A stretch of DNA of 41,350 nt from positions 1 to 41,350 of the IMG/VR virus record IMGVR_UViG_3300045988_014834; one strand, written 5' to 3'. Under the pieces are notes generated by a model, which was not told where the DNA came from, searched no databases, and saw only the letters and a list, made by a program, of their open reading frames with translations. The first letter of the stretch is position 1. Each line of letters begins with the position of its first letter. Origin of the DNA: a virus (taxonomy: Duplodnaviria > Heunggongvirae > Uroviricota > Caudoviricetes). Made by a program: the position numbers and the translations under genes. Below, one piece after another: positions 916 through 29,566 of the stretch.

Positions 916-953
916 GCTAGTATAGGACAAATCCTAAACACGAGGACGTAAGA

Positions 954-5287: not shown

Positions 5288-5289
5288 TT

Positions 5290-5802: not shown

Positions 5803-5993
5803 GAATTATTCCTCTGATTTCGCCCGACGCTGGCGGCGCGGTGTCTCTTCTTTAGTCGATTCTACCACGGCACCTTCTGGTGCGAAACGAGCATCTACTA
5901 CACGGAACCCCCGACGGTTATATTCTCGCTTCTGCTCGATGGTAATCGGCATTGGTACGTATTTAATTTCCACTTTAATTTCTCCTAGTAAAA

Positions 5994-6015
5994 AGGGGCC
6001 GTAGCCCCTTTGTTT
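5994..6015. terminator. Hairpin terminator/attenuator just downstream of the major capsid gene
   Basis: AGGGGC-CGTA-GCCCCT with T-runs on both sides. Confidence 0.5.
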
Positions 6016-6030
6016 TTACCACTAACTGTA

Positions 6031-6999
6031 TCACTTGTCCGCGTCGGCGATTGCCAGAGTACCGAGGGTGTGTTTGTTCTCGGCAACAGCTTTGTCCCAG
6101 TTGGTCGCGGTGAACAGTTCTGCGTCCAGCGGAGATTTACCGCCGTTGGCGACATCCCAGCTATAGCCTTTCAGTTTCAGGCCGAAGCTGTAATCCGCCT
6201 GCCAGGTGGTCTGGATGCGGGTGTTACCGTTGCTGGTATCAATGTTGCTGATAATGTCAGAAGCATTATCAACGATGATGCCGTTTGCAACTACTGACAG
6301 GACCTTAGTCTTGTTCGGAGTACCAGCTTCGTACAGCGCAGGGATGTCGGAGATCACATAACGCTTACCGAGAACATCGACAACCATAACGTTACCAGCA
6401 ACGAACAGCTGGTTTGCGTTAGTCAGCGCTTTATCTACCAGCGTGTGATAAGCAGCACCAGTCATGATGTCGGTAATCAGCAGCTGAGACTGGTCGCCGA
6501 ATTTAGCGTGGCTGTTGTTCAGCACGTTCAGGGACAGACCCACGGTTGCAGATACGTCGTTAACCAGCGCGGCCTGACCAGATACCGCCGCAACAGCTGC
6601 GCCAACAGCAGTGTTGAGCTGGTCCGCTAACAGTGCGTCAGAGAAGCCTTCGGAAATAGCACGAATCGCGCTCGCCGGGTCTTCGTTAAGCCAGGTCATT
6701 TGCGCAGGCTCGAACAGTACCGGTCCGAAGCCGCCAGCGACTTTAACGCCTACATGCTCGCCCTGAGTCAGCGCGGTAGCTGCCTGAGACGCGATAGCGG
6801 CGTAACGGTCAACGCGGCGTTTAGCGGAGGCAATCTGGTTAAAGAAAGACTCACGTGAGAAGTCACCGCGCCATGAAGCGGTAGACAGTACAATTGCACC
6901 ACCGGAGGCTGCGTTAAACTGGTCAGTTTTCTGGCCAAGCAGTTCGATAGTGGTACCGACGATGTCGTCGTTATAAACCTTCATATCTGACAGAGACAT
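6031..6999 (-). CDS. Major capsid protein, 322 aa
   Basis: Follows the scaffold gene; size and composition typical of an HK97-fold capsid protein; attenuator hairpin downstream. Confidence 0.65.
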   Translation of the reverse strand: MSLSDMKVYNDDIVGTTIELLGQKTDQFNAASGGAIVLSTASWRGDFSRESFFNQIASAKRRVDRYAAIASQAATALTQGEHVGVKVAGGFGPVLFEPAQMTWLNEDPASAIRAISEGFSDALLADQLNTAVGAAVAAVSGQAALVNDVSATVGLSLNVLNNSHAKFGDQSQLLITDIMTGAAYHTLVDKALTNANQLFVAGNVMVVDVLGKRYVISDIPALYEAGTPNKTKVLSVVANGIIVDNASDIISNIDTSNGNTRIQTTWQADYSFGLKLKGYSWDVANGGKSPLDAELFTATNWDKAVAENKHTLGTLAIADADK

Positions 7000-7005
7000 A
7001 TTCTG

Positions 7006-7632
7006 TTATCCTCGTTTGCCGTATTTGGCGTTAAGTTTTTGCTGGATTACGTCCGCACCACCGGCCCCGCCAGTAGAATTTTTGTTACCGGAAGCCCCGC
7101 CGCCGGTTGCTGCATCTGCTTTAATCAGATGCGAAAATGCTTTGTGCTCACGCAGATACTTTTTAAATTGCTCTGCGTCGGTGGTGATGACATTACCGTC
7201 TGCACCTGTGAACTTGGTCACAACGTCATCGCCGTCAAATTCGGTCTTGACCATCATAGCGATAATATCCGCTGCGCTCTCATCAATCAACATTCCAGAC
7301 AACTGGCTGATAACTGATTTACGTTCCGCGCCGAGGATACGCTCAGCCATTTTGCTAATCTTACCGTCTTTCTCGGCGAGTACTGGCTCATACTGACTGC
7401 GCAACGTTTTCTCGAATGCCTCAAGTTCGCCGTTCTGTTTTGCGCGTTCCTGTTCGGCTTTCAGCTTCGCATCTGCGGCTTCTTTAGCGGCAGCGGCAGC
7501 AGCTTTCTTTTCAGACAAGAGTTTCTCGTTGTTAGCTTTAAGACCGGATACCAGCGCGTCAACTTCTTCTTTTGTAAACGTGGTCTTAGCCTCTTGTTGT
7601 TCGATAATTTCGTCTTTCACTTCTTCGCTCAT
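7006..7632 (-). CDS. Scaffolding protein (track ORF starts at a TTG at 7683; likely ATG at 7632)
   Basis: Ala/Lys/Glu-rich coiled-coil composition, directly upstream of the capsid gene. Confidence 0.55.
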   Translation of the reverse strand: MSEEVKDEIIEQQEAKTTFTKEEVDALVSGLKANNEKLLSEKKAAAAAAKEAADAKLKAEQERAKQNGELEAFEKTLRSQYEPVLAEKDGKISKMAERILGAERKSVISQLSGMLIDESAADIIAMMVKTEFDGDDVVTKFTGADGNVITTDAEQFKKYLREHKAFSHLIKADAATGGGASGNKNSTGGAGGADVIQQKLNAKYGKRG

Positions 7633-7711
7633 CAGTATGTCCCCTGGACGTTGGAATCCGGGCCACCCGGATTTACATGTCAAGAATAAATTATTCCAAC
7701 ATGCAAGGCAA

Positions 7712-7975
7712 CTATTCCAGAATATTCCTCACGTAATCCTGCAACATGAACACTTTCAGCCGCAGCTGCCGTACACATTCGGCGTTCTGAACGTCGATGG
7801 CTAAATCCTCGTCAGCGTCGCTACTTGGCATCGCCAGTTTGCACGGCGGCTGCATCATCGTCGTATCCGGAGATGGAATTGGCGTTTGCGACGGCGCGGG
7901 ACTTGAGTTGCACGCGCTCAGGGTCAAAAGTGCACACGCTGCGACCAGGCGTTTTGATGTACTTAACGACTTCAC
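7712..7975 (-). CDS. o-spanin (Rz1-like lipoprotein), 87 aa
   Basis: Signal peptide with lipobox LSAC, Pro-rich mature region, starts inside the upstream gene in a different frame. Confidence 0.5.
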   Translation of the reverse strand: MKSLSTSKRLVAACALLTLSACNSSPAPSQTPIPSPDTTMMQPPCKLAMPSSDADEDLAIDVQNAECVRQLRLKVFMLQDYVRNILE

Positions 7976-8207
7976 GGGTAATCACCTCTGATTTCGTCTT
8001 GCCTTCGTTGTCAGCGGCTGCGGCCTTTGATTCATCCTGCTGCTGCCGTTGTGTTTTCTTCGCTAACTCAGCCTGGGCTTTCTGCTGTTGCTGCGAAACG
8101 AGATTCGCCCGGCCTTCGCTCCAGCCGCTGCGGTACTGATAGATGCCGTGTGCGTAAGCCAGGATGATGAAACATGCTCCTGCTACGACAGTTGCTTTAA
8201 GATTCAT
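7821..8207 (-). CDS. i-spanin (Rz-like), 128 aa
   Basis: N-terminal transmembrane helix then charged Gln/Lys-rich region; embeds the lipoprotein ORF. Confidence 0.5.
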   Translation of the reverse strand: MNLKATVVAGACFIILAYAHGIYQYRSGWSEGRANLVSQQQQKAQAELAKKTQRQQQDESKAAAADNEGKTKSEVITREVVKYIKTPGRSVCTFDPERVQLKSRAVANANSISGYDDDAAAVQTGDAK

Positions 8208-8306
8208 GTTTCCCCTTTCTCGATAAGTAAAGCCCCGCCTTAAAGCGGGGCGCTAGTCCTTATCATTTAAACATAGAAACGGCGTAATCTCAGTAAACCA
8301 GTTACT

Positions 8307-8460
8307 TTTTACACAAGCAATAGAGTATGGCCCTTCCGAACGCGTCAGCGTAACTACACTCAGGACTTACGTCCCGCTCCGTTACCTGCCCGCGCCGCGG
8401 TCGCTTGTTCACACTTCACAAGCTCAGGAGGAGCTTAGCACACTTTTAGTGAAAAGTCAA
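8307..8460. repeat. Conserved ~150-bp noncoding element, copy A (second copy 20382-20525)
   Basis: About 75 percent identity to copy B with compensatory changes in a hairpin (GGAC-TTAC-GTCC here, GTGCC-TAAT-GGCAC in B). Confidence 0.6.
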
Positions 8461-8522
8461 CTATTCGAATAGTTTATTCCAACATTTACAATTTAGTGGA
8501 ATAACTGGAATACATAAATAGT

Positions 8523-8551
8523 TTGCACACCCCGATATAATAGGGTACTAT
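8523..8551 (+). promoter_or_regulatory. Early promoter copy (TTGCAC N17 TACTAT) driving the methyltransferase
   Basis: TTGCACACCCCGATATAATAGGGTACTATTCAG. Confidence 0.6.
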
Positions 8552-8579
8552 TCAGTTAACTTGAACAGCAGGAGTTAAA

Positions 8580-9308
8580 ATGTTTACTTTGAAACGTGGG
8601 GATTGTCTGGAGTTGATGCATGACGTACCAGATAAGAGTGTAGACCTTATTTTATGCGATTTACCTTATGGTACGACGCAAAACAAATGGGATACGGTAA
8701 TACCTTTCGATGCCCTATGGGGCCATTACATGCGTATTTCTCGCGGTGCTATTGTGCTAACAGCAGCGCAACCTTTCACTAGCGCGTTGATTATGAGTAA
8801 TGCTAAATTGTTCAAATACTCGTGGGTTTGGGATAAGGCAAATAGCACTGGATTCCTTAACGCTAAAAAGCAACCTTTACGCCGAACAGAGGACGTGGTT
8901 GTATTTTATGGCTCACAGCCAACCTATAACCCTCAAATGGAAGTTAGAGGTAAGCCCCGTAAGAAAGGTGGGTATATTAAAAAAGACGGCTCTGACAACT
9001 ATGGGTCTTTTAAAAGTGTAGAATCTGTTAGTAATGATTACTACCCCACCAATTTGATAGAAATATCTAATGCTAATAGGTCGGAAAAGTGCCACCCCAC
9101 CCAAAAACCAGTAGCGTTGATGGAATACCTGATTAAGACGTATACAAACGAAGGGGATACAGTTCTTGATAACTGTATGGGCAGCGGGACGACCGGAGTT
9201 GCGTGTGCGAACACAAACCGGAAGTTTATAGGCATGGAGTTAGACCGTGATTACTTCCGTATAGCCAGAAGACGCATATCTGAAGCATATAAAACTAAGG
9301 CCCCTTAA
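8580..9308 (+). CDS. Orphan DNA methyltransferase (N6-adenine/N4-cytosine beta-class), 242 aa
   Basis: Catalytic-motif region DLILCDLPYG followed later by the AdoMet motif HPTQKP...VLDNCMGSGTT; no restriction enzyme partner nearby. Confidence 0.85.
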   Translation: MFTLKRGDCLELMHDVPDKSVDLILCDLPYGTTQNKWDTVIPFDALWGHYMRISRGAIVLTAAQPFTSALIMSNAKLFKYSWVWDKANSTGFLNAKKQPLRRTEDVVVFYGSQPTYNPQMEVRGKPRKKGGYIKKDGSDNYGSFKSVESVSNDYYPTNLIEISNANRSEKCHPTQKPVALMEYLIKTYTNEGDTVLDNCMGSGTTGVACANTNRKFIGMELDRDYFRIARRRISEAYKTKAP

Positions 9309-9320
9309 GGGGCCTTTTAT
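9295..9320. terminator. Bidirectional hairpin terminator (AAGGCCCC-TTAA-GGGGCCTT)
   Basis: Perfect hairpin between convergent genes. Confidence 0.65.
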
Positions 9321-9781
9321 CATTCTGGCTTAGTGACCTTCGCTGCTTTACTGACAGCCTCTACGCCGTCAGCATCGGTAACTTTAACGAAGTATCCACC
9401 GACGGCATTAACCGTCAGAGACAACGCCTCTTCAGGGGCGTTGACTACTTCCTTCCCGTCTTTGTACCAGGTAAGCGCATACGGAGCTTTACCCGCCTTA
9501 ACTTCGACAGAGATAGTGGCGCTGCCGTCTGCCAGTTCGACGTCTTTTGGTTGCACTGAGAAATACACGTCGCCAGCATCAGCCAGATACGGAATTTCAT
9601 AAAGCATACCAGCCGCGGGCAGCGCAATGCCGGTCTTGTCTGCAAACGGCATATCGTCTACTGGCGTACCTAGTACACTTTCGTCTTCAATAAACACCAC
9701 GTTCTCGCCGGAGCCAGACACGCGGGCGTACTGGACTACGCGACGCGACGGTACATCAGTTACTTTGAAAAATCCCATCAT
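9320..9781 (-). CDS. Structural protein with beta-rich (Ig-like?) C-terminal domain, 153 aa
   Basis: Position after the head morphogenesis gene; composition only. Confidence 0.3.
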   Translation of the reverse strand: MMGFFKVTDVPSRRVVQYARVSGSGENVVFIEDESVLGTPVDDMPFADKTGIALPAAGMLYEIPYLADAGDVYFSVQPKDVELADGSATISVEVKAGKAPYALTWYKDGKEVVNAPEEALSLTVNAVGGYFVKVTDADGVEAVSKAAKVTKPE

Positions 9782-10857
9782 TATTCCTCTTTCAGATAAT
9801 CAGCAACACGTTTATCGAGTTCCGCCATCTGCTTAAGCGTGAGCGGATTCCAAAAACCATCTACAGATATTACGCGAAACTCTTCCGGTGATATACCGCT
9901 GTTGCGGAAAATCTTACCGCGCACCGGGCCGAGCGCCTGGTCCTGGAACCACGCTGGTTGTTGTTTCAGGAACTCGTAGTAAGTGGTGTCTGCGCTTACC
10001 TGAGTACCGCCGTCCGCACCCTTAGCCGCTCGTTTCGCACCTTTATCGAGGAAGTCGAACTCGGAACTGATTACCGGAGCTGTGCACGATCGACAGTTAG
10101 GATGGGCGGGGGGCATCGGCCCCTTACCAATTTCCCACGTCATTCCGTCTCTGGCTCTGCAAATCGTACTGGTACGACTGTCCAGCGTCGACACCCACTC
10201 GTATTTCTCGATGATGTCGTCGTTCTGGCGATACGTCTCGTTGCGGGCTTCGTTGGATACGTGGGACAGCGCGGTGCGGATTACGGTAGCGGCATTACGT
10301 TCAGAGATGTCCGCCAGCCCACCAGCGCCAACAACATTCTTAACAATCTGCCGTGTCGTTTGACCTTGTACAAAGCCCATCTTAACGCCGGTTACCAGGC
10401 GCGATACTTCTGTTTCACCCCAGCCATCCATCAGCTTAGTGAAATCGACGGGCTTGTCGCTTAACGATAAGGGTTGAAACTCGGCGGCGGCCCACACTTG
10501 TTCGGCGGTTGGCGTAACAAATTCCGCATTTACGTTGGCGGTAAGTGTCTTTACATTCCACCCGGCCTCATATGCCGCCAGTTCCTTAAGGTCTTCTGTC
10601 AGCTTTGTTTGCCAGTCGCCGGTAAGTCCGGTTAGTGCTTCTTCCAGGTCGCGTAACAGTTTATTCAGCCGTGCGGTGCTGCGACCGTCGTCGCCAAATA
10701 ACAGCACCTGCCGTTTGATTTCATCTCGCATTTCCTGAATGAGCGGTGCGAGGTCTTTCACTTCGCCTGATGCGGTGCGTTGTAGCCATATTTGGTGGCT
10801 GATTAGTGATGTAAGTAAGCTCATAGATAAACCCTGTGGCGCTAAAGTTAATAGCAT
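9781..10857 (-). CDS. Head morphogenesis protein (SPP1 gp7 / Mu F-like), 358 aa
   Basis: Follows the portal gene; conserved C-terminal Cys-containing region (ICRARDG...HPNCRSC). Confidence 0.65.
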   Translation of the reverse strand: MLLTLAPQGLSMSLLTSLISHQIWLQRTASGEVKDLAPLIQEMRDEIKRQVLLFGDDGRSTARLNKLLRDLEEALTGLTGDWQTKLTEDLKELAAYEAGWNVKTLTANVNAEFVTPTAEQVWAAAEFQPLSLSDKPVDFTKLMDGWGETEVSRLVTGVKMGFVQGQTTRQIVKNVVGAGGLADISERNAATVIRTALSHVSNEARNETYRQNDDIIEKYEWVSTLDSRTSTICRARDGMTWEIGKGPMPPAHPNCRSCTAPVISSEFDFLDKGAKRAAKGADGGTQVSADTTYYEFLKQQPAWFQDQALGPVRGKIFRNSGISPEEFRVISVDGFWNPLTLKQMAELDKRVADYLKEE

Positions 10858-20153: not shown

Positions 20154-20187
20154 TTCTGAATTCCTTATGTCTCGTTCCGATAAGTGA

Positions 20188-20216
20188 ATAGTATACTATT
20201 ATGTTGGGGTGTGCAA
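20188..20216 (-). promoter_or_regulatory. Early promoter copy (TTGCAC N17 TACTAT) for the leftward early operon
   Basis: Minus strand TTGCACACCCCAACATAATAGTATACTATTCAC. Confidence 0.6.
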
Positions 20217-21160: not shown

Positions 21161-23428
21161 ATGTACGATGTAATTTTATCCTACTCGTGGTCACGTCGCA
21201 ACGCGCGAGCAGAGAAAAAGGATATAAACGTCAGAACCACACACACGGCAACACTGGACGACCTGAAAGAGTTAATCCGGCCGCTCGATGCCGTCCGCGA
21301 TGGGATTAACCCTAAGACCGCTCCCGGTTATATCACTGCCGCGTGTGACTCAACGCACAGCACCGTAAAAGACCCGGAAACCGGTGACTTTAAGCAGGCA
21401 CGTAAAGGCTTTTTCTATCGCTGTGACGCGTCTGTAAGCAAATCGTCACTGGCGTATCTGGACTTTGACAGCGCAACGCCGGAAGAATATCAGGAAGCGG
21501 TGCGCCTGGTTAAGCGCAGCCGCCATGCCATGTGCCTCTATACCACGGCTTCCCATACAGATGAGTCGCCACGCTTTCGTGTCGTCATGCCGCTGGCCCG
21601 CCCGGTTGAAGGCGGTGACATCATCCGCGTTCGTCATGGATTGCTGGAGCACTTCTTCAAAGGCATGGGCGCTGACCGCAGCGGGTTCACTCTGTCCCAG
21701 CCGATGTACCTGCCGCCGGTTGGCTCTACTGTTATCTGGTCGCGTCGCAATGACCTGATTGACCCCGACGAGTTACTGGAAGGTATCCCCGCCGTTGATG
21801 TTAGCAGCGCATCGGATTACCAGATACCGGAAGAACTGCGCACCGCGTTTACTGATGCGTTTGAAGCACTGGCGTTTGAGTACGGCGGGGTCATGACGCC
21901 GCGCGGCCTTAAGATGCCTGCTACACCGGAACATGCAGAGAACTACAGCGACCCGACGCCGCGCCCGGACGACTTCCTGCTGTGCTTCCCGCGCGAGGGA
22001 TACGAAGCGCCTAACGTAACCATGATTCACGACACCGACATCACGGCGACCGAAGGCATGCCCCCGAAAGAGGTGTGGAAATACGCGTGTGATGCTACCG
22101 GGCTGCCATTCAGTGAAGTGGCAGAGGCCATCGGTTGGGGTGCGCGTGAATCTGTCTCATGCAGCCTCGACGACCTGGAAGACGACGAGGACTCAGAGGA
22201 GGACGAGCTACCGGAACCGGTAAAGGCTGATTTCGTCGTAGAAGGGTACATGCCGTCGGATTGCATCTGGGATATTGTTGGGGAATCTGGCACGTACAAA
22301 TCATTCTATACGCTGGGGATAATGTACCTGAGCGCCGCCGGATACCGGTTTGCAGGGGCTGATACCCAGCGTTGCCACCATTTCTATATCGACGGTGAGG
22401 GTGGCGCAGCTACCCGCACACGTATCGATGCACTCGCAGCCAAATATGGTGAGGAAGGTAAAGATTATGTACATGTCATCGATATGGGTGAAGTCGGCAA
22501 GCTGAAAAGCCTGATTAAGCTAATGCGTGAAACTGCGGGCGACGAGCCAATCGGCATGGTTGCGTTCGACACCCTTAATCAGACCCTGGCCCTGACGATT
22601 GATAAGTTCGATGAGAACAGTTCATCAACAGCAATCGGCATGGGTAAAGTTATCGCCATTCTGAAAGAAGTACGCGACGCAACTAAAGCCGCGGTGGGTG
22701 TCGTTCACCATACCCCGAAGGGCGGAAAGAAAGCCCGCGGCAGTGGGGCGCTGTATGCGGGTGTCGACGTGGAACTGACAATAGAACGCGCGACCGAACG
22801 TCAGATAAACGTATACCACTCTAAATTTAAGCACGGGCCTCAACAGAAAACGGTTGGTATGGTGCTGGAGTCGGTACAGTTCCGCGAAGCCCCGCCGTCG
22901 AAAGAATACCGCGCGGTTGAGTTCCTCGGTAGCGCAGAGGAATACGGCACAATAGTAAACCTCGACCTGCCTGAGCCGCACAAGGCGCTTGTGCTGATGC
23001 CGTGGGGTTTCGAGCCGTTCAAAACTGACGAGGAGAAAGAGAGGGAAGAAGGGCTGACAAAGGAAGGTAAAGAAAACGTACGTAAAACCGTAGAGAACGC
23101 CGTCAACAGTTCAGAAGCCACGATACTCGCCGCGTTTGAACTGGCGGAAGGAACCTACAACGGCAACGAGGGCATCACGGTAGCCGCAGCGAATAAGCTC
23201 GCGCAGTCTGACCCCAACGCAAAGGCGTTTAACTCCAAAGAAGCCATAGAACGCGGGAAGATTAAGAAAATGGTTGAGGCGGGGTATCTCGTGCCCGGGA
23301 CTGACGAAAACAATCAGATAATCCCGGGCCGTTACAGACTTAACACCCGGATAACGGATAACAAGATTCCGAAGACAATATACGAACCGAATGAAATGTT
23401 GACAGTAACAGAGGAGGATTTGGAATGA
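21161..23428 (+). CDS. Replicative primase/helicase (primase-like N-terminal region plus P-loop ATPase), 755 aa
   Basis: Walker A GESGTYKS; RecA-like core; size and position at the head of the replication module. Confidence 0.5.
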   Translation: MYDVILSYSWSRRNARAEKKDINVRTTHTATLDDLKELIRPLDAVRDGINPKTAPGYITAACDSTHSTVKDPETGDFKQARKGFFYRCDASVSKSSLAYLDFDSATPEEYQEAVRLVKRSRHAMCLYTTASHTDESPRFRVVMPLARPVEGGDIIRVRHGLLEHFFKGMGADRSGFTLSQPMYLPPVGSTVIWSRRNDLIDPDELLEGIPAVDVSSASDYQIPEELRTAFTDAFEALAFEYGGVMTPRGLKMPATPEHAENYSDPTPRPDDFLLCFPREGYEAPNVTMIHDTDITATEGMPPKEVWKYACDATGLPFSEVAEAIGWGARESVSCSLDDLEDDEDSEEDELPEPVKADFVVEGYMPSDCIWDIVGESGTYKSFYTLGIMYLSAAGYRFAGADTQRCHHFYIDGEGGAATRTRIDALAAKYGEEGKDYVHVIDMGEVGKLKSLIKLMRETAGDEPIGMVAFDTLNQTLALTIDKFDENSSSTAIGMGKVIAILKEVRDATKAAVGVVHHTPKGGKKARGSGALYAGVDVELTIERATERQINVYHSKFKHGPQQKTVGMVLESVQFREAPPSKEYRAVEFLGSAEEYGTIVNLDLPEPHKALVLMPWGFEPFKTDEEKEREEGLTKEGKENVRKTVENAVNSSEATILAAFELAEGTYNGNEGITVAAANKLAQSDPNAKAFNSKEAIERGKIKKMVEAGYLVPGTDENNQIIPGRYRLNTRITDNKIPKTIYEPNEMLTVTEEDLE

Positions 23429-23622
23429 GCGGTAAATTTAAAGAAGTAAGCGACGAACTGAAAGGTAATAAATACACCAACCACAGAGGTGAAGTAGTGG
23501 AAGTTCTTAACGTAGTTCCTTATGGGCGTGGGTATCATGTTGTATACAGCTACACAGAGGCTTACAGCGTGTATTGCGGGTTAGGTAAGTTTCGAAAAAG
23601 ATACCCGATAAAGGTGCAATAA
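23425..23622 (+). CDS. Hypothetical protein, 65 aa
   Basis: ATGA overlap with the primase stop behind a strong GAGGAGG. Confidence 0.4.
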   Translation: MSGKFKEVSDELKGNKYTNHRGEVVEVLNVVPYGRGYHVVYSYTEAYSVYCGLGKFRKRYPIKVQ

Positions 23623-23650
23623 AAAAAAAGAAAGGGGCGTTAAGCCCCTT
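23622..23650 (-). terminator. Hairpin terminator (GGGGC-GTTAA-GCCCC) with T9 on the minus strand
   Basis: Read from sequence; stop codon of the HTH gene lies in the loop. Confidence 0.55.
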
Positions 23651-23855
23651 CACCAAACGCCAGCCACTTGGCGTCTACTTGCAGCACTTCCGCCAGTTTG
23701 AACAGCGTCGCCGGGCGGACGTCCTGAGTTACTCCAAGCGCCAGCTGGTTAATTGCACCCTGGGAAACGCCGGCCAGAACAGCCAGACGGCGCTGGGAGA
23801 TGCCGAGTTCTTTACGGCGTTGTTCTACACGAATGCCTAGTTCAGATGGTTGCAT
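23640..23855 (-). CDS. Cro/CI-type (XRE family) HTH regulator, 71 aa, divergent within the replication arm
   Basis: ELGISQRRLAVLAGVSQGAINQLALG is a classic XRE-type HTH; AAGGAG upstream. Confidence 0.6.
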   Translation of the reverse strand: MQPSELGIRVEQRRKELGISQRRLAVLAGVSQGAINQLALGVTQDVRPATLFKLAEVLQVDAKWLAFGEGA

Positions 23856-23919
23856 GTCAATTACTCCTTAGTCAGTTGATATGTGAATAGTACCATATTA
23901 ATTATTTTAGAAAAGCCCA

Positions 23920-23948
23920 TTGACAAGTGAATAGCTCGCTATTATAGT
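23920..23948 (+). promoter_or_regulatory. Middle promoter TTGACA, 17 nt, TATAGT with embedded palindrome AATAG-N4-CTATT (23930-23943)
   Basis: ttgacaagtgAATAGctcgCTATTatagtt. Confidence 0.55.
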
Positions 23949-24493: not shown

Positions 24494-24766
24494 ATGATTT
24501 ATCAACTCTACCGCGCCGTAGACAGGCGAGATAACACCGAGGCGTTGTGGCTATTGCGTGCGCCGTCAGGGGCGCACCAGATGGAAGAGATGGCCTACTT
24601 AGGCAAAGTACCACGGCCTAAAGATATAGGCCGTCATGTGTCGCAGATTAAGCGCACGACTTTCGCCAAGCCAGACTTTTATGTCTTCGAGTCGATGTAT
24701 GGCTGGGCTATGCATTGCGATCATAAGACCAGGCATTTAATTGACCAGTGGGAGAACATGGTATGA
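24494..24766 (+). CDS. Hypothetical protein, 90 aa
   Basis: Track ORF with GAGGG upstream. Confidence 0.4.
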   Translation: MIYQLYRAVDRRDNTEALWLLRAPSGAHQMEEMAYLGKVPRPKDIGRHVSQIKRTTFAKPDFYVFESMYGWAMHCDHKTRHLIDQWENMV

Positions 24767-25110
24767 CGGATAAATGGTGGCTTAATTTGCGCAGCGGTGA
24801 CAAGGTTTACACCGTCGGTGACCGCAGAAAGAACAGTGGCGCAGCTACTGTTCTACAAAATGGCAAAAAGTACATACACATTGCGCATGAAGCTCGGGCG
24901 CTCCGCGTGAATAAATCATCCGGCAGGCTTGAGGATTACCCAAAAACATTTATATACAAAAGTGAAAAGCATCACATGGCCGCTGTTGACGCAAGACGTC
25001 AGTTCGCAGGAATGTTGCGACAGTTAAGTGACTTACATCGTGATGATTCTTTCATTCCTACAGAAGAACAGTTACAAGCATTAAACTTGTATTTGGAGAG
25101 TTTACGATGA
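24748..25110 (+). CDS. Hypothetical protein, about 115-120 aa
   Basis: Coupled ORF. Confidence 0.4.
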   Translation: MGEHGMTDKWWLNLRSGDKVYTVGDRRKNSGAATVLQNGKKYIHIAHEARALRVNKSSGRLEDYPKTFIYKSEKHHMAAVDARRQFAGMLRQLSDLHRDDSFIPTEEQLQALNLYLESLR

Positions 25111-26348
25111 TTCTAAAAGAACGCGGCGGCAATAATGATGTGCACGCCTTACTGTCACCGTCTGGGGCTAAAAAGTGGCTTACATGCAGTGCATCACTGG
25201 CCTGTGAGAAAGATATTCCTAACACGTCGGGTAAAGCCGCTGTATTAGGCACAGCCATGCACACCATAGCTGAGGTACATCTCAACGCCTATATTCGCGG
25301 AACTGCGTTGCCGTTAGAGCGTGAAGTTGGTGCTTACGTGCTGGATGAGGGTAAAGGCCAGATTAAGGCGCTAATCAGCCCGATGAAAGGTGCGGTACTG
25401 ATTACGGCGGACATGATTGAGCAGGTGCGCAAGTACACCGACTACTGTAAGGCAATTATCGATGTAGCGACTTACGCCAAGCTCGAGATGCGCGTCAATC
25501 TTACGGAGGTATTGCATCCGGGTTACGAAGGCGTTGAGACGTTCGGAACGGCTGACCTTGTTGCCGTTCAGGAACTAGCAAACACCGACGAGCACATGCT
25601 CATTATCGGTGACCTGAAAACAGGACGGCATCGTGTCGAAGCGAAAGAAAACAAGCAGCTTATGCTTTACGCTCTCGGTGTTTATCGCCGACTCAAGAGG
25701 CGCTATAACATCACCGTGGTTCGTCTGGTAATATTCCAGCCGTACGCTGGTGGTGCGTCGGAGTGGGGCATCTCGGTTGAAGGTCTGGAACTGTTCGCCA
25801 AGTTTGCACAAAAACGCGCGCTGTTAGCCCTTGATGCGTATTCCCGTGGCAAGAAGAACCTGAAAGCGTCTGACTTCAGGCCATCGGTAGATGGTTGTCA
25901 GTGGTGCCGGTTCTCCGAACAATGCGCCGCACGTACAAAGACGGTTAACGCAGTACTGGCGGAAGAACTGGAAGACGATTTTGCGCTTGAGCTTACGCCT
26001 GAGCAACTCGTAGCTGAGTATGAGAAGTTGCCGTTGTTGCGACAGCACATCGACAAGGTCGAGAAAGCTATGGCCGCCGCGTTGCATTCCGGTAAGAAAG
26101 TGCCGGGGTACAAGCTGGTAGAAGGTCACCATGGTAATCGTGCGTGGAAAGATGCGGAGAAAGTAGCAGAACTCTACGGCGACAAGCTGACTAAAGAAGT
26201 GCTCATGTCACCTACCGAAGCTGTTAAAGTCATACCGGAAGAAGAACTGAAAGACTTCATTACCCGTAAGCCCGGCGCACCGTGTGTTGCAACGGCAGAC
26301 GACAAACGCCCTGAGTGGAATCAGGTAACAGAGGAGGATTTAGAATGA
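25107..26348 (+). CDS. PD-(D/E)XK nuclease, Cas4-like (DUF2800-type phage exonuclease), 413 aa
   Basis: Core GTADLVAV...IGDLKTGR and C-terminal Cys cluster CQWCRFSEQC. Confidence 0.6.
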   Translation: MILKERGGNNDVHALLSPSGAKKWLTCSASLACEKDIPNTSGKAAVLGTAMHTIAEVHLNAYIRGTALPLEREVGAYVLDEGKGQIKALISPMKGAVLITADMIEQVRKYTDYCKAIIDVATYAKLEMRVNLTEVLHPGYEGVETFGTADLVAVQELANTDEHMLIIGDLKTGRHRVEAKENKQLMLYALGVYRRLKRRYNITVVRLVIFQPYAGGASEWGISVEGLELFAKFAQKRALLALDAYSRGKKNLKASDFRPSVDGCQWCRFSEQCAARTKTVNAVLAEELEDDFALELTPEQLVAEYEKLPLLRQHIDKVEKAMAAALHSGKKVPGYKLVEGHHGNRAWKDAEKVAELYGDKLTKEVLMSPTEAVKVIPEEELKDFITRKPGAPCVATADDKRPEWNQVTEEDLE

Positions 26349-26518
26349 TGGTTTATATACTCACGCGGTATCACCGCCGATACTCTATTCAAGAACTTGA
26401 TATTGTTTCTGTTCACGCCAAACGCGCCGACGCCGACAAAATTGCAGAAGAGAAGAACTCAAAGCATGATGCGGTGCAACCTTATATCTATAAGGTAGTT
26501 CCGAAGAGACTTAAATAA
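26345..26518 (+). CDS. Small basic protein, 57 aa
   Basis: ATGA overlap with the nuclease stop behind GAGGAGG. Confidence 0.35.
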   Translation: MMVYILTRYHRRYSIQELDIVSVHAKRADADKIAEEKNSKHDAVQPYIYKVVPKRLK

Positions 26519-26522
26519 AGTG

Positions 26523-26552
26523 TTGACAACCTGAATAGTTAGCTATTATAGT
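26523..26552 (+). promoter_or_regulatory. Middle promoter TTGACA ... TATAGT with palindrome AATAG-N4-CTATT (26534-26547)
   Basis: ttgacaacctgAATAGttagCTATTatagtt. Confidence 0.5.
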
Positions 26553-26607
26553 TCTAATCACTGGCCGGGCAGTTCCCGGAGTAAACTTTGAAAAGCGAGA
26601 AATCAAG

Positions 26608-27234
26608 ATGGGACTGAAATTAAATCTGCGTAAAGTAAACACTGCATGGGTTAACGTATTCGAACGCGAAAAAGACCGTGAAAACGATGATGGCTCAATC
26701 ACTAAAGGCCAGTACAGCGCGACTATTATCCTGCCGTCTGACCATGCTCAAATCGACGCGCTTTACGATACCGTTTACGCTGTAGTTGAAGAAGCATTAG
26801 GCGCAGCCGCTGCCGAGAAATGGATGAAGTCCAACTACGGCGAAGGGAAGCACATGGATAAATGCGCGATTAAAGACATTGCAGAGCGCGACAATCCGTT
26901 TGAGGACTTCCCGGAAGGCTTCTACTTCAAAGCGAAGGCACAGAAACAGCCGCTGATTGTAACCTCTAAAAAAGGTGAGACTCAGGTAGAGCAGGACTTC
27001 AACGTAGACGGCGAACAGATTGAAGGCGAACAGGTTTACAGCGGCTGCGTAGCTAACGTAAGTGTTGAAATCTGGTTCAGCCAGAAATACAAAGTACTCG
27101 GCGTTAACCTGCTGGCTATTAAATACGTCGGCGAAGGTAAAGCGTTCGGTGGTTCTAAAGTCGCTGCAAGCGTCAATGACCTGGAAGACGACGAAGAAGA
27201 TGAAGCACCGCGCCGTGAACGTCGTCGCCGCTAA
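26608..27234 (+). CDS. ssDNA-binding protein candidate (DUF2815-like), 208 aa
   Basis: Acidic C-terminal tail DLEDDEEDEAP; lies between the Cas4-like nuclease and the polymerase. Confidence 0.45.
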   Translation: MGLKLNLRKVNTAWVNVFEREKDRENDDGSITKGQYSATIILPSDHAQIDALYDTVYAVVEEALGAAAAEKWMKSNYGEGKHMDKCAIKDIAERDNPFEDFPEGFYFKAKAQKQPLIVTSKKGETQVEQDFNVDGEQIEGEQVYSGCVANVSVEIWFSQKYKVLGVNLLAIKYVGEGKAFGGSKVAASVNDLEDDEEDEAPRRERRRR

Positions 27235-27295: not shown

Positions 27296-29566
27296 ATGCC
27301 TAATTTATTATACCTGGATACTGAGACATTCTCTGAAGCGGACTTAAAGAAAGTCGGATCGTATGCGTATGCGGAGCATCCGACAACCGAGATTATAATT
27401 TGTACATATGCCATTGATGATGGGCCCGTAGAAGTATGGGATTGCACTTCCGAACCGGTAATGCCAATAAGCCTCCGCATTGCGCTGCGCAATGTTATGC
27501 GCGGACGTATGAGAATTGTAGGCCATAACTTTTTAATGTTCGACAGGCTTGTTATGAAGCACTGCTGGGGCGTTGATATCAAGCCAAGAAACACCATTGA
27601 CACGATGATTAGAGCGTTTCGTCACGCGTTGCCGGGGTCACTTGATGCGCTGTGCGAAGTGCTGGGCGTATCTGCGGACAACGCTAAAGATAAACGCGGC
27701 AAGGCGCTGATTCAGCGTTTCTCTAAACCCACGCCGAAGAACTACAAAATCCGCCGCTACACCGCTGAAACTCACCCTGACGAGTGGGCTCTGTTCATCA
27801 AGTATGCCGTGAGCGACATCACTGCGATGCGTGAAGTCTTCCATAAGCTGCCGCGTTGGGGTAACTCAGAGTTTGAAGACCGCGTACTGGAACTGGACCA
27901 GTTAATCAACGACCGAGGCTTCTTTGTTGACACGGCTCTTGCTGAGGCGGCGGTAGCGGCAGTGGAACGCCACAAGCAAGAGCTAAAAAACGAGGCCCGC
28001 GCGAAATTCGGGGGGAAACTAACTGGCAAAGATTTCCTGCCAATCCTTCGGGAACTGGCACCGGCCTACAACATTTATAATGCGCAGAAAGCAACGCTCG
28101 AAGGTTTGCTAGAGGACGACGACCTGCCTGATGATGCGCGTACAATCATTGAGATGCGCCTCGGCGCGGCCTCCACGGCGTCGACAAAATACAAACCGCT
28201 CCTGCTAGGACGGTCCAAAGACGGACGGCGCCGTGGTTGCATCCAGTACGGTGGGGCAAAGCGCACTTTACGATTTGCGGGTAAAGGGTTCCAGCCGCAG
28301 AACCTGTCGCGTGGGTACTACCACGACGACCCAACCAACGAGGAAAAGAAACTCGTACGCCAGCCGTGGGAGTCTGACGAAGACTGGAACCGCAGGCTTA
28401 ACCCGCTATCCTTCGGCATCAATTTGCTTTTAAAGGGTCGGGCGCATCGCCGTTTTGATATATCTAAACTAACGGCCTCAACTGTCCGCAGTTGCATCAT
28501 CCCGGAAAAAGGCAATAAGTTGCTCGTTGCCGACTACTCAAACGTGGAAGGTCGTGGGTTAGCCTGGACGGCGGGGGAGACGTCTGCCCTTGAGACGTTC
28601 CGCGCGGGGATTGATATCTATTGCGCCACAGCTGGTAAGATGTTCGGCATGGACCCTATTGAGCTTAAAGCCACCCGTAAGGACCTGCGTCAGGTCGGGA
28701 AATGTTGCGAGCTCGGCCTCGGCTACGAGGGGGGCGTAGGGGCCTTCATGACTATGGCTAAAACTTACGGGCTGGACCTCTTTAAAATGACGGAGACAAT
28801 GCGGGGGACATTCCCTGACCATATATGGGCCGCCACTGCCCGAGGTTATGAATGGGCGCGGATCCAGGAGGCTAAGCGACCTCCAAAACCCGGTAAAAAG
28901 GATGAACGGGCCTCTTACGTGTTGCCTAAGGAAGTGTGGCGTACCTGTGATGCTATCAAGCGCATGTGGCGGGAAGCTCACCCGGAAACAGTGAAATTCT
29001 GGAACGACCTTAAGGATTCGGTAATTGCTGCAATCAGAAATCCGGGACGAGAGTTTTGGGCGGGAGCCAGAGTCCGCCTTAACGGCGACAGAGCTATTCG
29101 CATCTGGCGTACTAAAGAGAAAGACAGACAGGGTAACTTTGTGCCAGGTTGGTGGCTGTGCGTGGAGTTGCCGTCCGGACGCATCATGTCCTACCCTGGC
29201 ATAGGCTTAAGCGTGACTAAAGAAACTGACGAGGATGGGCGCGTAACAACTAACGTTCGCATTAAGTACCAGGGTGAAAACCAGACTACCCGCCAGTGGA
29301 CAACTTTGTACACACACGGTGGAAAATTGTGTGAAAACATCATCCAGGCGTTGTGCCGTGATTTACTGGTTAACGGACTCCTGACGGTCGAGGCAGCGGG
29401 CTACCCAATTGTACTTCACGTGCATGACGAATGCGTCGCCGAAACACCAGACACACCGGAGTACACGGTTAACGAGATGGGTGACCTGTTATGCTCATTA
29501 CCTGAATGGGCTGAAGGATTCCCACTAACATGGGCCGGGGAAGAGGTGTACCGTTATGCTAAGTAA
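27296..29566 (+). CDS. DNA polymerase, family A, with 3'-5' exonuclease domain, 756 aa
   Basis: Exo I motif YLDTETF; PolA motif A DYSNVE, motif B K..G.YG, motif C VHDE. Confidence 0.85.
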   Translation: MPNLLYLDTETFSEADLKKVGSYAYAEHPTTEIIICTYAIDDGPVEVWDCTSEPVMPISLRIALRNVMRGRMRIVGHNFLMFDRLVMKHCWGVDIKPRNTIDTMIRAFRHALPGSLDALCEVLGVSADNAKDKRGKALIQRFSKPTPKNYKIRRYTAETHPDEWALFIKYAVSDITAMREVFHKLPRWGNSEFEDRVLELDQLINDRGFFVDTALAEAAVAAVERHKQELKNEARAKFGGKLTGKDFLPILRELAPAYNIYNAQKATLEGLLEDDDLPDDARTIIEMRLGAASTASTKYKPLLLGRSKDGRRRGCIQYGGAKRTLRFAGKGFQPQNLSRGYYHDDPTNEEKKLVRQPWESDEDWNRRLNPLSFGINLLLKGRAHRRFDISKLTASTVRSCIIPEKGNKLLVADYSNVEGRGLAWTAGETSALETFRAGIDIYCATAGKMFGMDPIELKATRKDLRQVGKCCELGLGYEGGVGAFMTMAKTYGLDLFKMTETMRGTFPDHIWAATARGYEWARIQEAKRPPKPGKKDERASYVLPKEVWRTCDAIKRMWREAHPETVKFWNDLKDSVIAAIRNPGREFWAGARVRLNGDRAIRIWRTKEKDRQGNFVPGWWLCVELPSGRIMSYPGIGLSVTKETDEDGRVTTNVRIKYQGENQTTRQWTTLYTHGGKLCENIIQALCRDLLVNGLLTVEAAGYPIVLHVHDECVAETPDTPEYTVNEMGDLLCSLPEWAEGFPLTWAGEEVYRYAK

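What the first reader, a model, noticed from the sequence alone, without database searches (positions are those of the whole stretch)
23400..23428. Repeated 3' coupling module after two replication genes
The primase/helicase and the Cas4-like nuclease both end with the same peptide (VTEEDLE), encoded by GTAACAGAGGAGGATTT(A/G)GAATGA. The second copy is at 26320-26348. Each copy provides a strong GAGGAGG and an ATGA-overlapping start for a small basic downstream ORF (23425-23622 and 26345-26518). An identical C-terminal tag plus coupled micro-gene on two unrelated enzymes suggests a duplicated module.
Basis: seen in the sequence. Interest (0 to 1): 0.4.

Follow-up and report, generated by a model that had tools for sequence, protein, structure and literature searches.

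The report
Shared acidic tail on replication enzymes
Two unrelated phage replication enzymes end in the same seven amino acids because that peptide is a conserved acidic tail, probably a docking tail, that several proteins of this replication machinery share; in this genome its codons also act as the ribosome-binding site for two unrelated, optional small genes placed directly behind it.

Summary
GTAACAGAGGAGGATTT(G/A)GAATGA occurs exactly twice (23405-23428 and 26325-26348). It ends the primase-helicase and the Cas4-like DUF2800 nuclease with VTEEDLE*. Each copy supplies GAGGAGG plus an ATGA stop/start overlap for a small basic ORF.

The "duplicated tag plus micro-gene module" reading is mostly wrong:
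- Similarity stops at the 24-mer.
- The two small ORFs are unrelated.
- In related Guernseyvirinae they are optional and replaced by at least 2 (primase site) and at least 4-5 (nuclease site) unrelated, site-specific ORFs.
- The peptide is present whether or not a small ORF follows.

The peptide is held at the protein level. Relatives without a downstream ORF encode V(S/T)EEDLE with non-Shine-Dalgarno codons. Other genera keep a matching motif on both enzymes with different codons.

Across the wider duf2800-gp2.5-polA module, nuclease, gp2.5-like SSB and primase tails co-vary within genomes (permutation z 4.3 and 4.7; the polymerase control gave none). The closest precedent is T7, where the gp4 and gp2.5 acidic tails dock on the polymerase.

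Best reading: a shared docking tail whose GAG-GAG/TGA codon form is retained where a translationally coupled accessory gene sits behind it. Binding and coupling are inferred, not shown. The nuclease as a tail carrier appears undescribed in the literature I searched.

The parts
23405..23428 (+). Tail-coding 24-mer of the primase-helicase: V-T-E-E-D-L-E-stop. GAGGAGG at 23411-23417, ATG of ORF65 at 23425-23427, TGA stop at 23426-23428.
   Evidence: In relatives the peptide V-T-E-(E/D/G)-D-L-E is kept whether or not an ORF follows.
26325..26348 (+). Tail-coding 24-mer of the Cas4-like nuclease, 23/24 identical to the first copy. GAGGAGG at 26331-26337, ATG of ORF57 at 26345-26347, TGA stop at 26346-26348.
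   Evidence: Relatives without a downstream ORF have GTTAGTGAAGAAGATTTRGAATAA (VSEEDLE*) followed directly by the promoter.
21161..23428 (+). Replicative primase-helicase, 755 aa. Carries the tail at its C-terminus and a second DLE motif in its interdomain linker.
   Evidence: phrog_3228 E=1e-287; Pfam AAA_25 at residues 352-522.
22163..22191 (+). Internal acidic linker motif S-L-D-D-L-E-D-D-E of the primase-helicase (residues about 335-343).
   Evidence: Direct repeat D8 with 27169-27197, 25/29 nt. Conserved in 17 relatives. Motif scan.
25107..26348 (+). Cas4-like PD-(D/E)XK nuclease (DUF2800), 413 aa. The tail lies outside the Pfam domain, which ends at residue 402.
   Evidence: invariant C27, C264, C267, C273; conserved DKRP followed by a variable acidic tail.
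23425..23622 (+). ORF65, a small basic accessory protein (phrog_36357), probably translationally coupled to the primase-helicase.
   Evidence: Found directly after the primase in the 16 close (95% identity or more) phage records among 37 tblastn hits; the listed ones are Escherichia (Kagunavirus-type) phages. Distant homologues in Skatevirus-like phages have a different RBS.
26345..26518 (+). ORF57, a small basic accessory protein, probably translationally coupled to the nuclease. Its 3' end (GAAGAGACTTAAATAA) resembles a decayed, frame-shifted copy of the nuclease tail.
   Evidence: Found in 24 phage records; in all 17 listed records that annotate the neighbouring gene by name it lies directly after the nuclease.
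26608..27234 (+). gp2.5-like / Enc34-type SSB-annealase. Carries S-V-N-D-L-E-D-D-E-E-D-E (27169-27204) after the OB fold, then an unusual basic end RRERRRR.
   Evidence: PF10991 and phrog_112.
27296..29566 (+). Family A DNA polymerase. The only universal module component without the tail motif, so it is the candidate receptor (inferred).
   Evidence: no [DEN]D[LF][DE] motif. Nuclease-polymerase tail control z=-0.6. T7 precedent in PMC12593628.
23630..23651 (.). GC-rich hairpin between the converging primase operon and the repressor gene. It is the right-hand boundary of the primase-site insertion point.
   Evidence: In ORF-free relatives it follows the primase stop codon after 5-6 nt.
26523..26552 (+). 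Near-consensus sigma-70 promoter (TTGACA-18-TATAGT) for the SSB/polymerase operon. It is the right-hand boundary of the nuclease-site insertion point.
   Evidence: In ORF-free relatives it starts 4 nt after the nuclease stop codon.

Best explanation
VTEEDLE is the local form of an acidic, leucine-containing C-terminal tail shared by several proteins of the duf2800-gp2.5-polA replication/recombination module. In this phage it sits at the C-terminus of the primase-helicase and of the Cas4-like nuclease. Related DLE motifs sit in the tail of the gp2.5-like SSB and in the primase linker.

Proposed mechanism (inferred): the tails are flexible docking peptides that bring each protein to one common receptor site. 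The receptor is most likely a basic surface of the family A polymerase. The alternative is the OB-fold groove of the SSB. This is how the T7 gp4 and gp2.5 tails dock on gp5.

A second, independent layer sits on top. The gaps directly after the two genes (stop codon to hairpin, and stop codon to promoter) are hot spots where unrelated small accessory genes have been inserted. Where one is present, the tail is written with GAG-GAG codons and a TGA stop. The tail's own codons then form a strong Shine-Dalgarno sequence 7 nt before an ATG that overlaps the stop, which would couple translation of the small gene to that of the enzyme.

The 23/24 nt identity follows from the same peptide under the same two coding constraints, not from a duplicated DNA module.

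Shown: the sequence anatomy, protein-level conservation, within-genome co-variation, variability of the cassettes, and their coding signature. Inferred: tail binding, the identity of the receptor, and actual coupling.
For: 1. The peptide is conserved independently of the RBS.
- ORF-free relatives encode VSEEDLE as GTTAGTGAAGAAGATTTRGAATAA at the nuclease.
- At the primase they show synonymous or conservative variants: GAGGAAG, GAGGATG, GTTACT and others.

2. Other genera keep matching tails on both enzymes with different codons.
- Cornellvirus Shemara: primase SEEDDLEN*, nuclease ATDSDLED*, SSB ..ATDSDLDD..
- Dhillonvirus jat: ATDDDLKD* and ATDEDLSNE*.
- L058: AEDDDLAD* and VSDDDLSN*.
- The number of residues after DL matches within four of these five lineages (1/1, 1/1, 2/2, 2/2; 3/2 in jat).

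3. The module shows wider co-variation.
- Chi-like BSPM4: primase GEWEDEV, nuclease AWDDEDDDEV, SSB DWEDEV, helicase VWDDEE.
- Staphylococcus LH1: nuclease SAEDDFDKL, SSB AAEDDFDEL.
- BPP-1-like phages: nuclease and SSB both end in DLV or DLI.

4. Permutation tests on 31 nuclease clusters (<60% identity) support genome-specific matching (right-aligned test).
- Nuclease-SSB best 7-mer: z=4.3, 0/20000 permutations reached the observed value.
- Nuclease-primase: z=4.7, 1/20000.
- Nuclease-polymerase control: z=-0.6.

5. The tail lies outside the folded domain: Pfam DUF2800 ends at residue 402 of 413. Only these two proteins in the window have an acidic C-terminus.

6. Codon identity at shared tail residues in other genomes is at expectation (34 observed, 31.1 expected, P=0.25). 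The motif is therefore held by protein-level selection, not gene conversion.

7. Precedent.
- T7 gp4 acidic tails bind basic patches of gp5 (PMC12593628).
- The acidic tails of T7-type SSBs mediate contacts with polymerase and primase-helicase, and are disordered in Enc34 (PMC5686142).
- In T7, gp2.5 ends ..EDGDF and gp4 ends ..NDTDF.

8. Coupling layer.
- GAGGAGG occurs in 12/12 primase tails with an ORF against 11/21 without (P=0.005), and in 19/19 against 0/12 at the nuclease (P=7e-9).
- No RNA structure occludes the site.
- The small ORFs show third-position variation.
- ORF65 homologues elsewhere use another RBS.
Against: - No binding data exist, and no complex could be modelled with these tools.
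- The tail here ends in glutamate, not in the aromatic or hydrophobic residue typical of T7 and E. coli SSB tails.
- In this clade the SSB ends in a basic RRERRRR stretch rather than in the motif, so the three-protein symmetry is imperfect.
- Genomes in the permutation tests are phylogenetically related, so the number of independent co-variation events (roughly 8-11 tail types) is smaller than N.
- Some Gram-positive lineages show no nuclease-SSB tail match: AFKEE.. against ..NPITGQPY.
- The Fisher tests on Shine-Dalgarno codons are not phylogenetically independent.
- The perfect Ser/Thr split between ORF-free and ORF-bearing nuclease alleles is not explained by Shine-Dalgarno or ATGA selection. 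It hints at a DNA-level copying event.
Confidence: 0.6

Rival explanations
1. DNA-level duplication or short-patch gene conversion. One 'tail + ATGA' segment was copied from the primase 3' end to the nuclease 3' end, creating a portable left junction behind which small genes are exchanged.
For: - ORF-bearing nuclease alleles (GTAACAGAGGAGG..TGA) differ from the primase tail at 1-2 of 24 nt, but from ORF-free nuclease alleles (GTTAGTGAAGAAG..TAA) at 6-7 nt.
- Meanwhile the 204 nt immediately upstream can be 94.6% identical (L028 against the window).
- Thr pairs with ORF presence and Ser with ORF absence in every contig.
- In L010 the inserted ORF ends in a second copy of the tail, GAAGATTTAGAATAA.
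- In the window 6/7 codons are identical against 2.8 expected.
Against: - Three of the differences are exactly those needed for the Shine-Dalgarno sequence and the ATGA overlap.
- The remaining codon matches are not significant (P about 0.08).
- No cassette is found at both sites, and the cassettes at the two sites are unrelated.
- Similarity does not extend a single base beyond the 24-mer.
- The peptide pre-exists at both sites without any ORF and in other genera.
- There is no general excess of codon identity in other genomes.
Confidence: 0.15
2. The shared tail is a recognition peptide for a host factor rather than a phage replisome partner. Candidates are a host protein that normally binds the SSB C-terminal tail, a chaperone, or a protease adaptor.
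For: Acidic tails with one hydrophobic residue resemble bacterial SSB C-terminal tails, which bind many host proteins (general knowledge; PMC5686142 notes that the acidic segment serves protein interactions). Tail variants differ between phages of different hosts.
Against: Phages of the same hosts carry very different tails: E. coli/Salmonella Kagunavirus EEDLE against Salmonella Chi-like WEDEV. This fits co-evolution with a phage-encoded receptor better than with a conserved host protein. The motif tracks the phage module across Gram-positive and Gram-negative hosts.
Confidence: 0.12
3. Coincidence of ribosome-binding-site requirements. Two strong Shine-Dalgarno/ATGA junctions happen to translate to the same peptide, and the peptide has no function.
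For: GAGGAGG read in frame necessarily gives Glu-Glu, and GAATGA gives Glu-stop. Four of the seven residues are therefore linked to the signal.
Against: - ORF-free relatives keep the peptide without a Shine-Dalgarno sequence (GAAGAAG) and with TAA or TAG stops.
- Other genera keep the motif with unrelated codons.
- No other gene junction in the window uses this sequence.
- The chance of an identical heptapeptide tail is about 6e-6.
Confidence: 0.02

Closest known systems
Bacteriophage T7 replisome: acidic C-terminal tails of gp4 primase-helicase and gp2.5 SSB docking on basic patches of gp5 DNA polymerase
   Same: - Two or more replication proteins of one phage carry similar acidic C-terminal tails outside their folded domains. 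In T7, gp2.5 ends ..EADEDGDF and gp4 ends ..WSNDTDF.
- The SSB here belongs to the same gp2.5/Enc34 structural type (PMC5686142).
- The polymerase is family A.
- The tails are proposed to tether partners to one hub (PMC12593628).
   Different: - The tail here ends in Leu-Glu rather than an aromatic residue.
- It is carried by a Cas4-like PD-(D/E)XK nuclease, whereas the T7 gp6 exonuclease has no acidic tail.
- The primase-helicase is of a different family (AAA_25/RepA-like, phrog_3228).
- In this clade the SSB has the motif internally, followed by a basic end.
- No binding has been measured.
duf2800-gp2.5-polA module (Steczkiewicz et al., PMC8093625) and the gp2.5-like recombinase paired with a RecE-like exonuclease (Lopes et al., PMC2896510)
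   Same: Same gene set and order: DUF2800 nuclease, gp2.5-like SSB/annealase, family A polymerase.
   Different: In the passages I read by keyword search (not the full texts), those papers describe gene context and annealing activity. I found no mention of a shared, co-varying C-terminal tail on the nuclease, SSB and primase.
Translational coupling through ATGA stop/start overlap with a Shine-Dalgarno sequence inside the upstream gene (textbook bacterial and phage operon feature)
   Same: Overlapping ATGA, GAGGAGG 7 nt upstream, no occluding RNA structure.
   Different: The Shine-Dalgarno sequence is built from the codons of a functionally constrained peptide. The downstream genes are interchangeable accessory ORFs rather than fixed operon partners.
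Phage 'morons' and mosaic accessory-gene hot spots at gene boundaries
   Same: Presence/absence polymorphism, and several unrelated small genes occupying the same intergenic slot in close relatives. Some have homologues in unrelated phages.
   Different: Classical morons carry their own promoter and terminator. These ORFs have neither, and borrow transcription and translation initiation from the upstream enzyme gene.

Membership tests
T7-type shared acidic C-terminal docking tails | The tail lies at the extreme C-terminus, outside the folded or catalytic domain | tested here: met
   The Pfam DUF2800 match ends at residue 402 of 413. In a 6-genus alignment the conserved DKRP is followed by a variable acidic tail. 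The primase tail follows the last conserved block.
T7-type shared acidic C-terminal docking tails | Acidic tail with a hydrophobic or aromatic residue at or near the C-terminus | tested here: inconclusive
   E-E-D-L-E is acidic with one Leu but ends in Glu. Sister lineages end in DLV, DLI, DFL or WEDEV, which are more canonical. T7 ends in DF.
T7-type shared acidic C-terminal docking tails | The same tail on two or more replisome proteins of one phage, co-varying between phages | tested here: met
   Identical VTEEDLE on two proteins. Permutation tests: nuclease-SSB z=4.3 (0/20000), nuclease-primase z=4.7 (1/20000), polymerase control z=-0.6.
T7-type shared acidic C-terminal docking tails | The SSB of the system is gp2.5-like | tested here: met
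   PF10991 Enc34_ssDNA-bd E=6.6e-16; phrog_112 E=2e-41. Weak PDB hits to 4jg2 and 5odj.
T7-type shared acidic C-terminal docking tails | The tail physically binds the DNA polymerase (or SSB) and is needed for coordinated replication | not testable with these tools
   No complex prediction or experiment is available here. The polymerase is inferred as receptor only because it is the universal module member without the motif.
Translationally coupled overlapping gene pair | Stop and start codons overlap, with a Shine-Dalgarno sequence 5-9 nt upstream inside the upstream ORF | tested here: met
   ATGA at 23425-23428 and 26345-26348. GAGGAGG ends 7 nt before each ATG.
Translationally coupled overlapping gene pair | The downstream ORF is a real protein-coding gene | tested here: met
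   Variable sites by codon position are 1/1/12 (ORF57) and 2/1/12 (ORF65). ORF65 matches phrog_36357 at E=7.5e-49 and has distant homologues.
Translationally coupled overlapping gene pair | Downstream translation depends on translation of the upstream gene | not testable with these tools
   Needs reporter or ribosome-profiling experiments. No occluding RNA structure is predicted, so independent initiation is also possible.
Segmental DNA duplication ('duplicated module') | Similarity extends beyond the functional signal into the flanks and the downstream gene | tested here: not met
   The alignment of 340 nt around each site is conserved only over the 24-mer. The small proteins give no BLASTP alignment at E<=100. 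The cassettes at the two sites are unrelated.
Segmental DNA duplication ('duplicated module') | Codon identity beyond what the peptide and the signals force | tested here: inconclusive
   6/7 codons are identical against 2.8 expected, but 3 are forced by the Shine-Dalgarno sequence and ATGA. For the other 4, three matches have P about 0.08. Other genomes show no excess.
Classical phage moron | Own promoter and terminator flank the inserted gene | tested here: not met
   No promoter-like site lies between the enzyme gene and the small ORF; they overlap. The flanking hairpin and promoter belong to the backbone and are present in ORF-free relatives.
Classical phage moron | Presence/absence polymorphism among close relatives, with unrelated genes in the same slot | tested here: met
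   Primase site: empty, ORF65 or ORF104. Nuclease site: empty, ORF57, ORF52, ORF60, ORF67 or ORF78/83.
duf2800-gp2.5-polA replication/recombination module | Adjacent DUF2800 nuclease, gp2.5-like SSB and family A polymerase genes | tested here: met
   25107-26348, 26608-27234 and 27296-29566. Module defined in PMC8093625.

The most novel reading that the evidence does not exclude
The duf2800-gp2.5-polA module uses a lineage-specific 'tail code'. One receptor site, on the family A polymerase or on the SSB OB fold, is contacted in turn by the SSB, the primase-helicase, the Cas4-like recombination nuclease and, in Chi-like phages, an SNF2-type helicase. All four carry the same short acidic tail. 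Tail and receptor co-evolve, so the replisome and recombination parts of different phages do not cross-react. The nuclease as a tail-bearing client would link recombination-dependent replication directly to the polymerase hub.
Probability: 0.35. Interest if true: 0.6.

Novelty: new variant of a known kind. Interest (0 to 1): 0.45.

Why it matters
If the tail is a docking peptide, one short motif would explain how a widespread but poorly studied phage replication/recombination module assembles. The module occurs in Guernseyvirinae, Dhillonvirus, Chi-like, BPP-1-like and staphylococcal phages and in many prophages.

It would extend the T7 gp4/gp2.5-gp5 paradigm to a Cas4-like nuclease. It would also give directly testable reagents: peptides, tail swaps and tail deletions.

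The within-genome co-variation is a simple sequence signature that could be used to predict replisome partners in uncharacterised phages.

The second layer shows how a constrained protein tail can double as a ribosome-binding site, turning the 3' ends of essential genes into landing sites for accessory genes. This is useful when annotating small phage ORFs and when engineering these therapeutic-candidate phages. The coupling mechanism and accessory-gene hot spots themselves are ordinary.

Tried and rejected
1. DNA duplication beyond the 24-mer: the alignment of the two 3' regions shows no flank similarity.
2. Homology of the two small proteins: none.
3. A generic phage RBS: no other junction in the window uses this sequence.
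4. An RNA element at the junctions: fold energies are no better than shuffles, z 0.88 and 0.63.
5. Movement of cassettes between the two sites: ORF65 and ORF104 were found only next to the primase (some ORF104 records annotate it merely as a helicase), and ORF57 and ORF67 only next to the nuclease, wherever the neighbouring gene is annotated by name. ORF60 has no match in the phage collection.
6. The RBS travelling with the cassette: ORF65 homologues in Skatevirus-like phages have a different upstream sequence.
7. General gene conversion between tails: codon identity in other genomes is at expectation.
8. The search for homologous proteins on the nuclease returned only relatives at least 95% identical, so it was useless for deep conservation. 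I used tblastn on phage records and IMG/VR loci instead.
9. Programmed frameshifting that would fuse enzyme and small ORF: no slippery heptamer is visible by eye before the ATGA. I did not pursue this further.
10. Literature searches for a description of shared tails in this module, or for Kagunavirus helicase-primase work, found nothing relevant. One search failed on syntax.
11. No solved structures are related by sequence to the nuclease or the primase-helicase.
12. Structure prediction was not run. Only near-identical homologues were admissible as an alignment, and complexes cannot be modelled here.
Full report
**Context.** The window is a Kagunavirus-type siphophage genome (Guernseyvirinae, K1G-like). 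The replication region 21000-27300 matches 447 phage records at 80-95% identity. The region encodes:
- a replicative primase-helicase (21161-23428; phrog_3228, AAA_25);
- a Cas4-like DUF2800/PDDEXK_1 nuclease (25107-26348);
- a gp2.5/Enc34-type SSB-annealase (26608-27234; PF10991, phrog_112);
- a family A polymerase (27296-29566).

This is the 'duf2800-gp2.5-polA module' described in PMC8093625. The gp2.5-like protein paired with a RecE-like exonuclease was described in PMC2896510.

**1.
- GTAACAGAGGAGGATTTGGAATGA (23405-23428) and GTAACAGAGGAGGATTTAGAATGA (26325-26348) are the only matches with up to 3 mismatches. Shuffles gave none.
- Both enzymes end in VTEEDLE*.
- GAGGAGG lies 7 nt before an ATG that overlaps the TGA stop.
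- The downstream ORFs (65 aa, pI 9.4; 57 aa, pI 9.7) exist.
- No other GGAGG-start junction in the window resembles this sequence.

**2. It is not a duplicated DNA module.**
- The two 3' regions align only over the 24-mer.
- The two small proteins are unrelated.
- In about 40 IMG/VR relatives, both slots are polymorphic.
  - After the primase: nothing (stop codon, 5-6 nt, then the hairpin), ORF65, or an unrelated 104-aa membrane ORF.
  - After the nuclease: nothing (the stop codon directly abuts the TTGACA promoter), ORF57, or one of four to five other ORFs. These are 52, 60, 67 and 78/83 aa long, and are variously membrane, acidic or basic proteins.
- Combinations reassort freely between genomes.
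- In the phage collection each cassette is rare and site-specific wherever the neighbouring gene is annotated by name.
  - ORF65: 37 records, of which 16 are close relatives lying directly after the primase.
  - ORF57: 24 records.
  - ORF104: 14 records.
  - ORF67: 29 records.
- ORF65 has 43-61% identical homologues in Skatevirus-like phages. There it sits upstream of the portal gene behind a different RBS (GAGGTGAAGTG). The ribosome-binding site is therefore supplied by the enzyme gene and not carried by the cassette.
- Both window ORFs are real genes: 12 of 14 and 12 of 15 variable sites are at codon position 3.

**3. The tag is a conserved peptide.**
- ORF-free relatives still encode it. 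The nuclease has GTT AGT GAA GAA GAT TTR GAA TAA (VSEEDLE). The primase has GTG ACA GAG GAG/GAA/GAT GAT TTG GAA/GAG TAG/TAA.
- More distant genera keep a matching motif on both enzymes with unrelated codons.
  - Cornellvirus Shemara: primase ..PTSEEDDLEN*, nuclease ..PATDSDLED*.
  - Dhillonvirus jat: ..SATDDDLKD* and ..EATDEDLSNE*.
  - L054: ..AADEDLE* and ..VSDSDLE*.
  - L058: ..AEDDDLAD* and ..VSDDDLSN*.
- The number of residues after D-L matches between the two proteins in four of these five lineages.
- The tail lies outside the DUF2800 domain, whose model ends at residue 402 of 413. It follows a family-wide DKRP motif.
- These are the only two proteins in the window with an acidic C-terminus.

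**4. The tail is shared across the whole module and co-varies within genomes.** I collected 80 further loci with a nuclease profile. I identified nuclease, SSB, polymerase, primase and helicase ORFs with HMMs. Examples:

| Lineage | Nuclease | SSB | Other |
|---|---|---|---|
| Chi-like BSPM4 | ..AWDDEDDDEV | ..AWDEDEDWEDEV | primase ..GEWEDEV; SNF2-type helicase ..VWDDEE |
| Staphylococcus LH1 | SAEDDFDKL | AAEDDFDEL.. | |
| BPP-1 | DDFADVSGETVEDLV | DEFDDITEGAAAADLV | |
| L060 | NDFDDVSEDAIAADLI | DDFDDISEGADAEGLV | |
| L074 | ..AESLI | ..AESLI | |
| L059 | ..AAEFI | ..AGEFV | |
| L092 | ..SDMI | ..ADMI | |
| Shemara | ATDSDL | ATDSDL | |

The window's SSB carries ..ASVNDLEDDEEDE.. after its OB fold. 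The primase linker carries SLDDLEDDEDSEEDE. These two stretches are 25/29 nt identical in DNA and are conserved in relatives.

Permutation tests used one genome per nuclease cluster (<60% identity, N=31):

| Pair | z | Permutations reaching the observed value |
|---|---|---|
| Nuclease-SSB, best 7-mer | 4.3 | 0/20000 |
| Nuclease-primase | 4.7 | 1/20000 |
| Nuclease-polymerase (control) | -0.6 | not significant |

 A stricter right-aligned test gives the same ranking.

Caveats: the genomes are related, so the independent events number about 8-11 tail types. Some Gram-positive lineages show no match.

**5. Why the DNA is nearly identical here.**
- In other genomes, codons at identical tail residues match no more often than codon usage predicts (34 against 31.1, P=0.25). 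The motif is held by selection on the protein, not by gene conversion.
- In the window 6 of 7 codons match. Three of these are forced by GAGGAGG and GAATGA. For the remaining four, three matches have P of about 0.08.
- The Shine-Dalgarno codon form tracks the presence of a downstream ORF. At the primase site it occurs in 12/12 contigs with an ORF and 11/21 without (P=0.005). At the nuclease site the split is 19/19 against 0/12 (P=7e-9). These tests are not phylogenetically independent.
- No RNA structure is predicted at either junction.

**6. Mechanism.**
- Shown: the anatomy, the protein-level conservation, the co-variation, and the variability and coding signature of the cassettes.
- Inferred: the tails are flexible docking peptides for one receptor.
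  - In T7, the gp4 acidic tails bind two basic patches of gp5, and their deletion reduces processivity (PMC12593628).
  - The acidic tails of T7-type SSBs mediate contacts with polymerase and primase-helicase, and are disordered in the Enc34 crystal (PMC5686142).
  - I confirmed that T7 gp2.5 and gp4 end in ..GDF and ..TDF, while the gp6 exonuclease has no such tail.
- The family A polymerase is the only universal module member without the motif. That makes it the most economical receptor. The OB-fold groove of the SSB, which in T7 binds its own tail, is the alternative.
- The small ORFs are most likely expressed by re-initiation or Shine-Dalgarno-driven initiation at the ATGA overlap.

**7.
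- The ORF-bearing nuclease allele (Thr, GAG GAG, TGA) is 1-2 nt from the primase tail but 6-7 nt from the ORF-free nuclease allele (Ser, GAA GAA, TAA).
- The 204 nt upstream can be 94.6% identical across that divide.
- In L010 the inserted ORF ends with a second copy of the tail, GAAGATTTAGAATAA.
- The 3' end of ORF57 looks like a decayed, frame-shifted copy of the tail.
- A short-patch recombination between the two tails, or insertion within the tail, may therefore have founded the nuclease-site slot. I give this about 15%.

**8. Novelty and verdict.**
- Translational coupling and accessory-gene hot spots are ordinary.
- Shared acidic tails are known for T7 gp4 and gp2.5.
- A Cas4-like nuclease carrying the same tail, and module-wide within-genome co-variation across many phage lineages, were not described in the papers I could search.
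- No related structures are solved.
- I rate it a new variant of a known kind, of moderate interest, and directly testable.

Noticed in passing
window 22163-22191 and 27169-27197: A second coding repeat, 25/29 nt identical. AGCCTCGACGACCTGGAAGACGACGAGGA (S-L-D-D-L-E-D-D-E) lies in the primase-helicase interdomain linker. AGCGTCAATGACCTGGAAGACGACGAAGA (S-V-N-D-L-E-D-D-E) lies in the SSB tail. Both are conserved in 17 relatives (21-26 of 29 nt). The window therefore holds four DLE motifs in three proteins.
   Followed up: partly
window 27205-27234 (SSB C-terminus): The gp2.5-like SSB of Guernseyvirinae, Cornellvirus and Dhillonvirus ends in a basic stretch (APRRERRRR, PRKRRRR, RPRRKRR..) after its acidic segment. 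Most other lineages of this SSB family end in the acidic/hydrophobic tail itself. The function of the basic end is unknown.
   Followed up: no
L010 13233-13412 (IMG/VR 3300045988_026399) and window 26500-26522: In L010 the alternative 60-aa ORF behind the nuclease ends ...KKEDLE*, using a second exact copy of the nuclease tail end (GAAGATTTAGAATAAAGTG). The insert is thus flanked by a direct repeat of the tail. The window's ORF57 ends GAAGAGACTTAAATAAAGTG, which looks like a decayed, frame-shifted remnant of the same sequence.
   Followed up: partly
window 20179-20202, 23878-23901, 23922-23945, 26532-26553: There is a family of similar promoter or operator-like sequences (GAyAwGTGAATAG...TATTAT). 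It includes two 11/12-consensus promoters at 23920-23948 and 26523-26552 that share TGAATAGyTmGCTATTATAGTT. They flank the divergent HTH repressor gene (23640-23855, minus strand) and may be repressor operators.
   Followed up: no
L050 (Salmonella phage BSPM4, Chivirus) 591-10399: Four proteins end in the same W-(D/E)-D-E-(V/E) tail: primase, DUF2800 nuclease, gp2.5-like SSB and an SNF2-type helicase. Translating the reverse cloning primer printed in PMC5686142 gives WDEDEV* for the end of the Enc34 SSB, the same tail type.
   Followed up: partly
window 24748-25110: The 120-aa ORF just upstream of the nuclease, overlapping it, matches Pfam Phage_ProQ_C_like (E=1.6e-6) and phrog_20588. It may be an RNA-binding or chaperone-like protein in the replication operon.
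   Followed up: no
L045-L047 (Skatevirus KFS-SE2, Klebsiella KpV2811, Flyfo siphovirus Tbat1_6): ORF65 homologues (core KY.NHRGE..V.NVV..G.GY.V....V.CGLGKFRKRYP.KV) sit immediately upstream of the portal (DUF1073) gene in unrelated phages of about 47 kb. This small basic protein family (phrog_36357) has moved between very different genomic contexts.
   Followed up: partly
window 25107-26348: Four cysteines (C27, C264, C267, C273) are invariant across six genera of DUF2800 nucleases, consistent with a Cas4/AddB-type iron-sulfur cluster.
   Followed up: no
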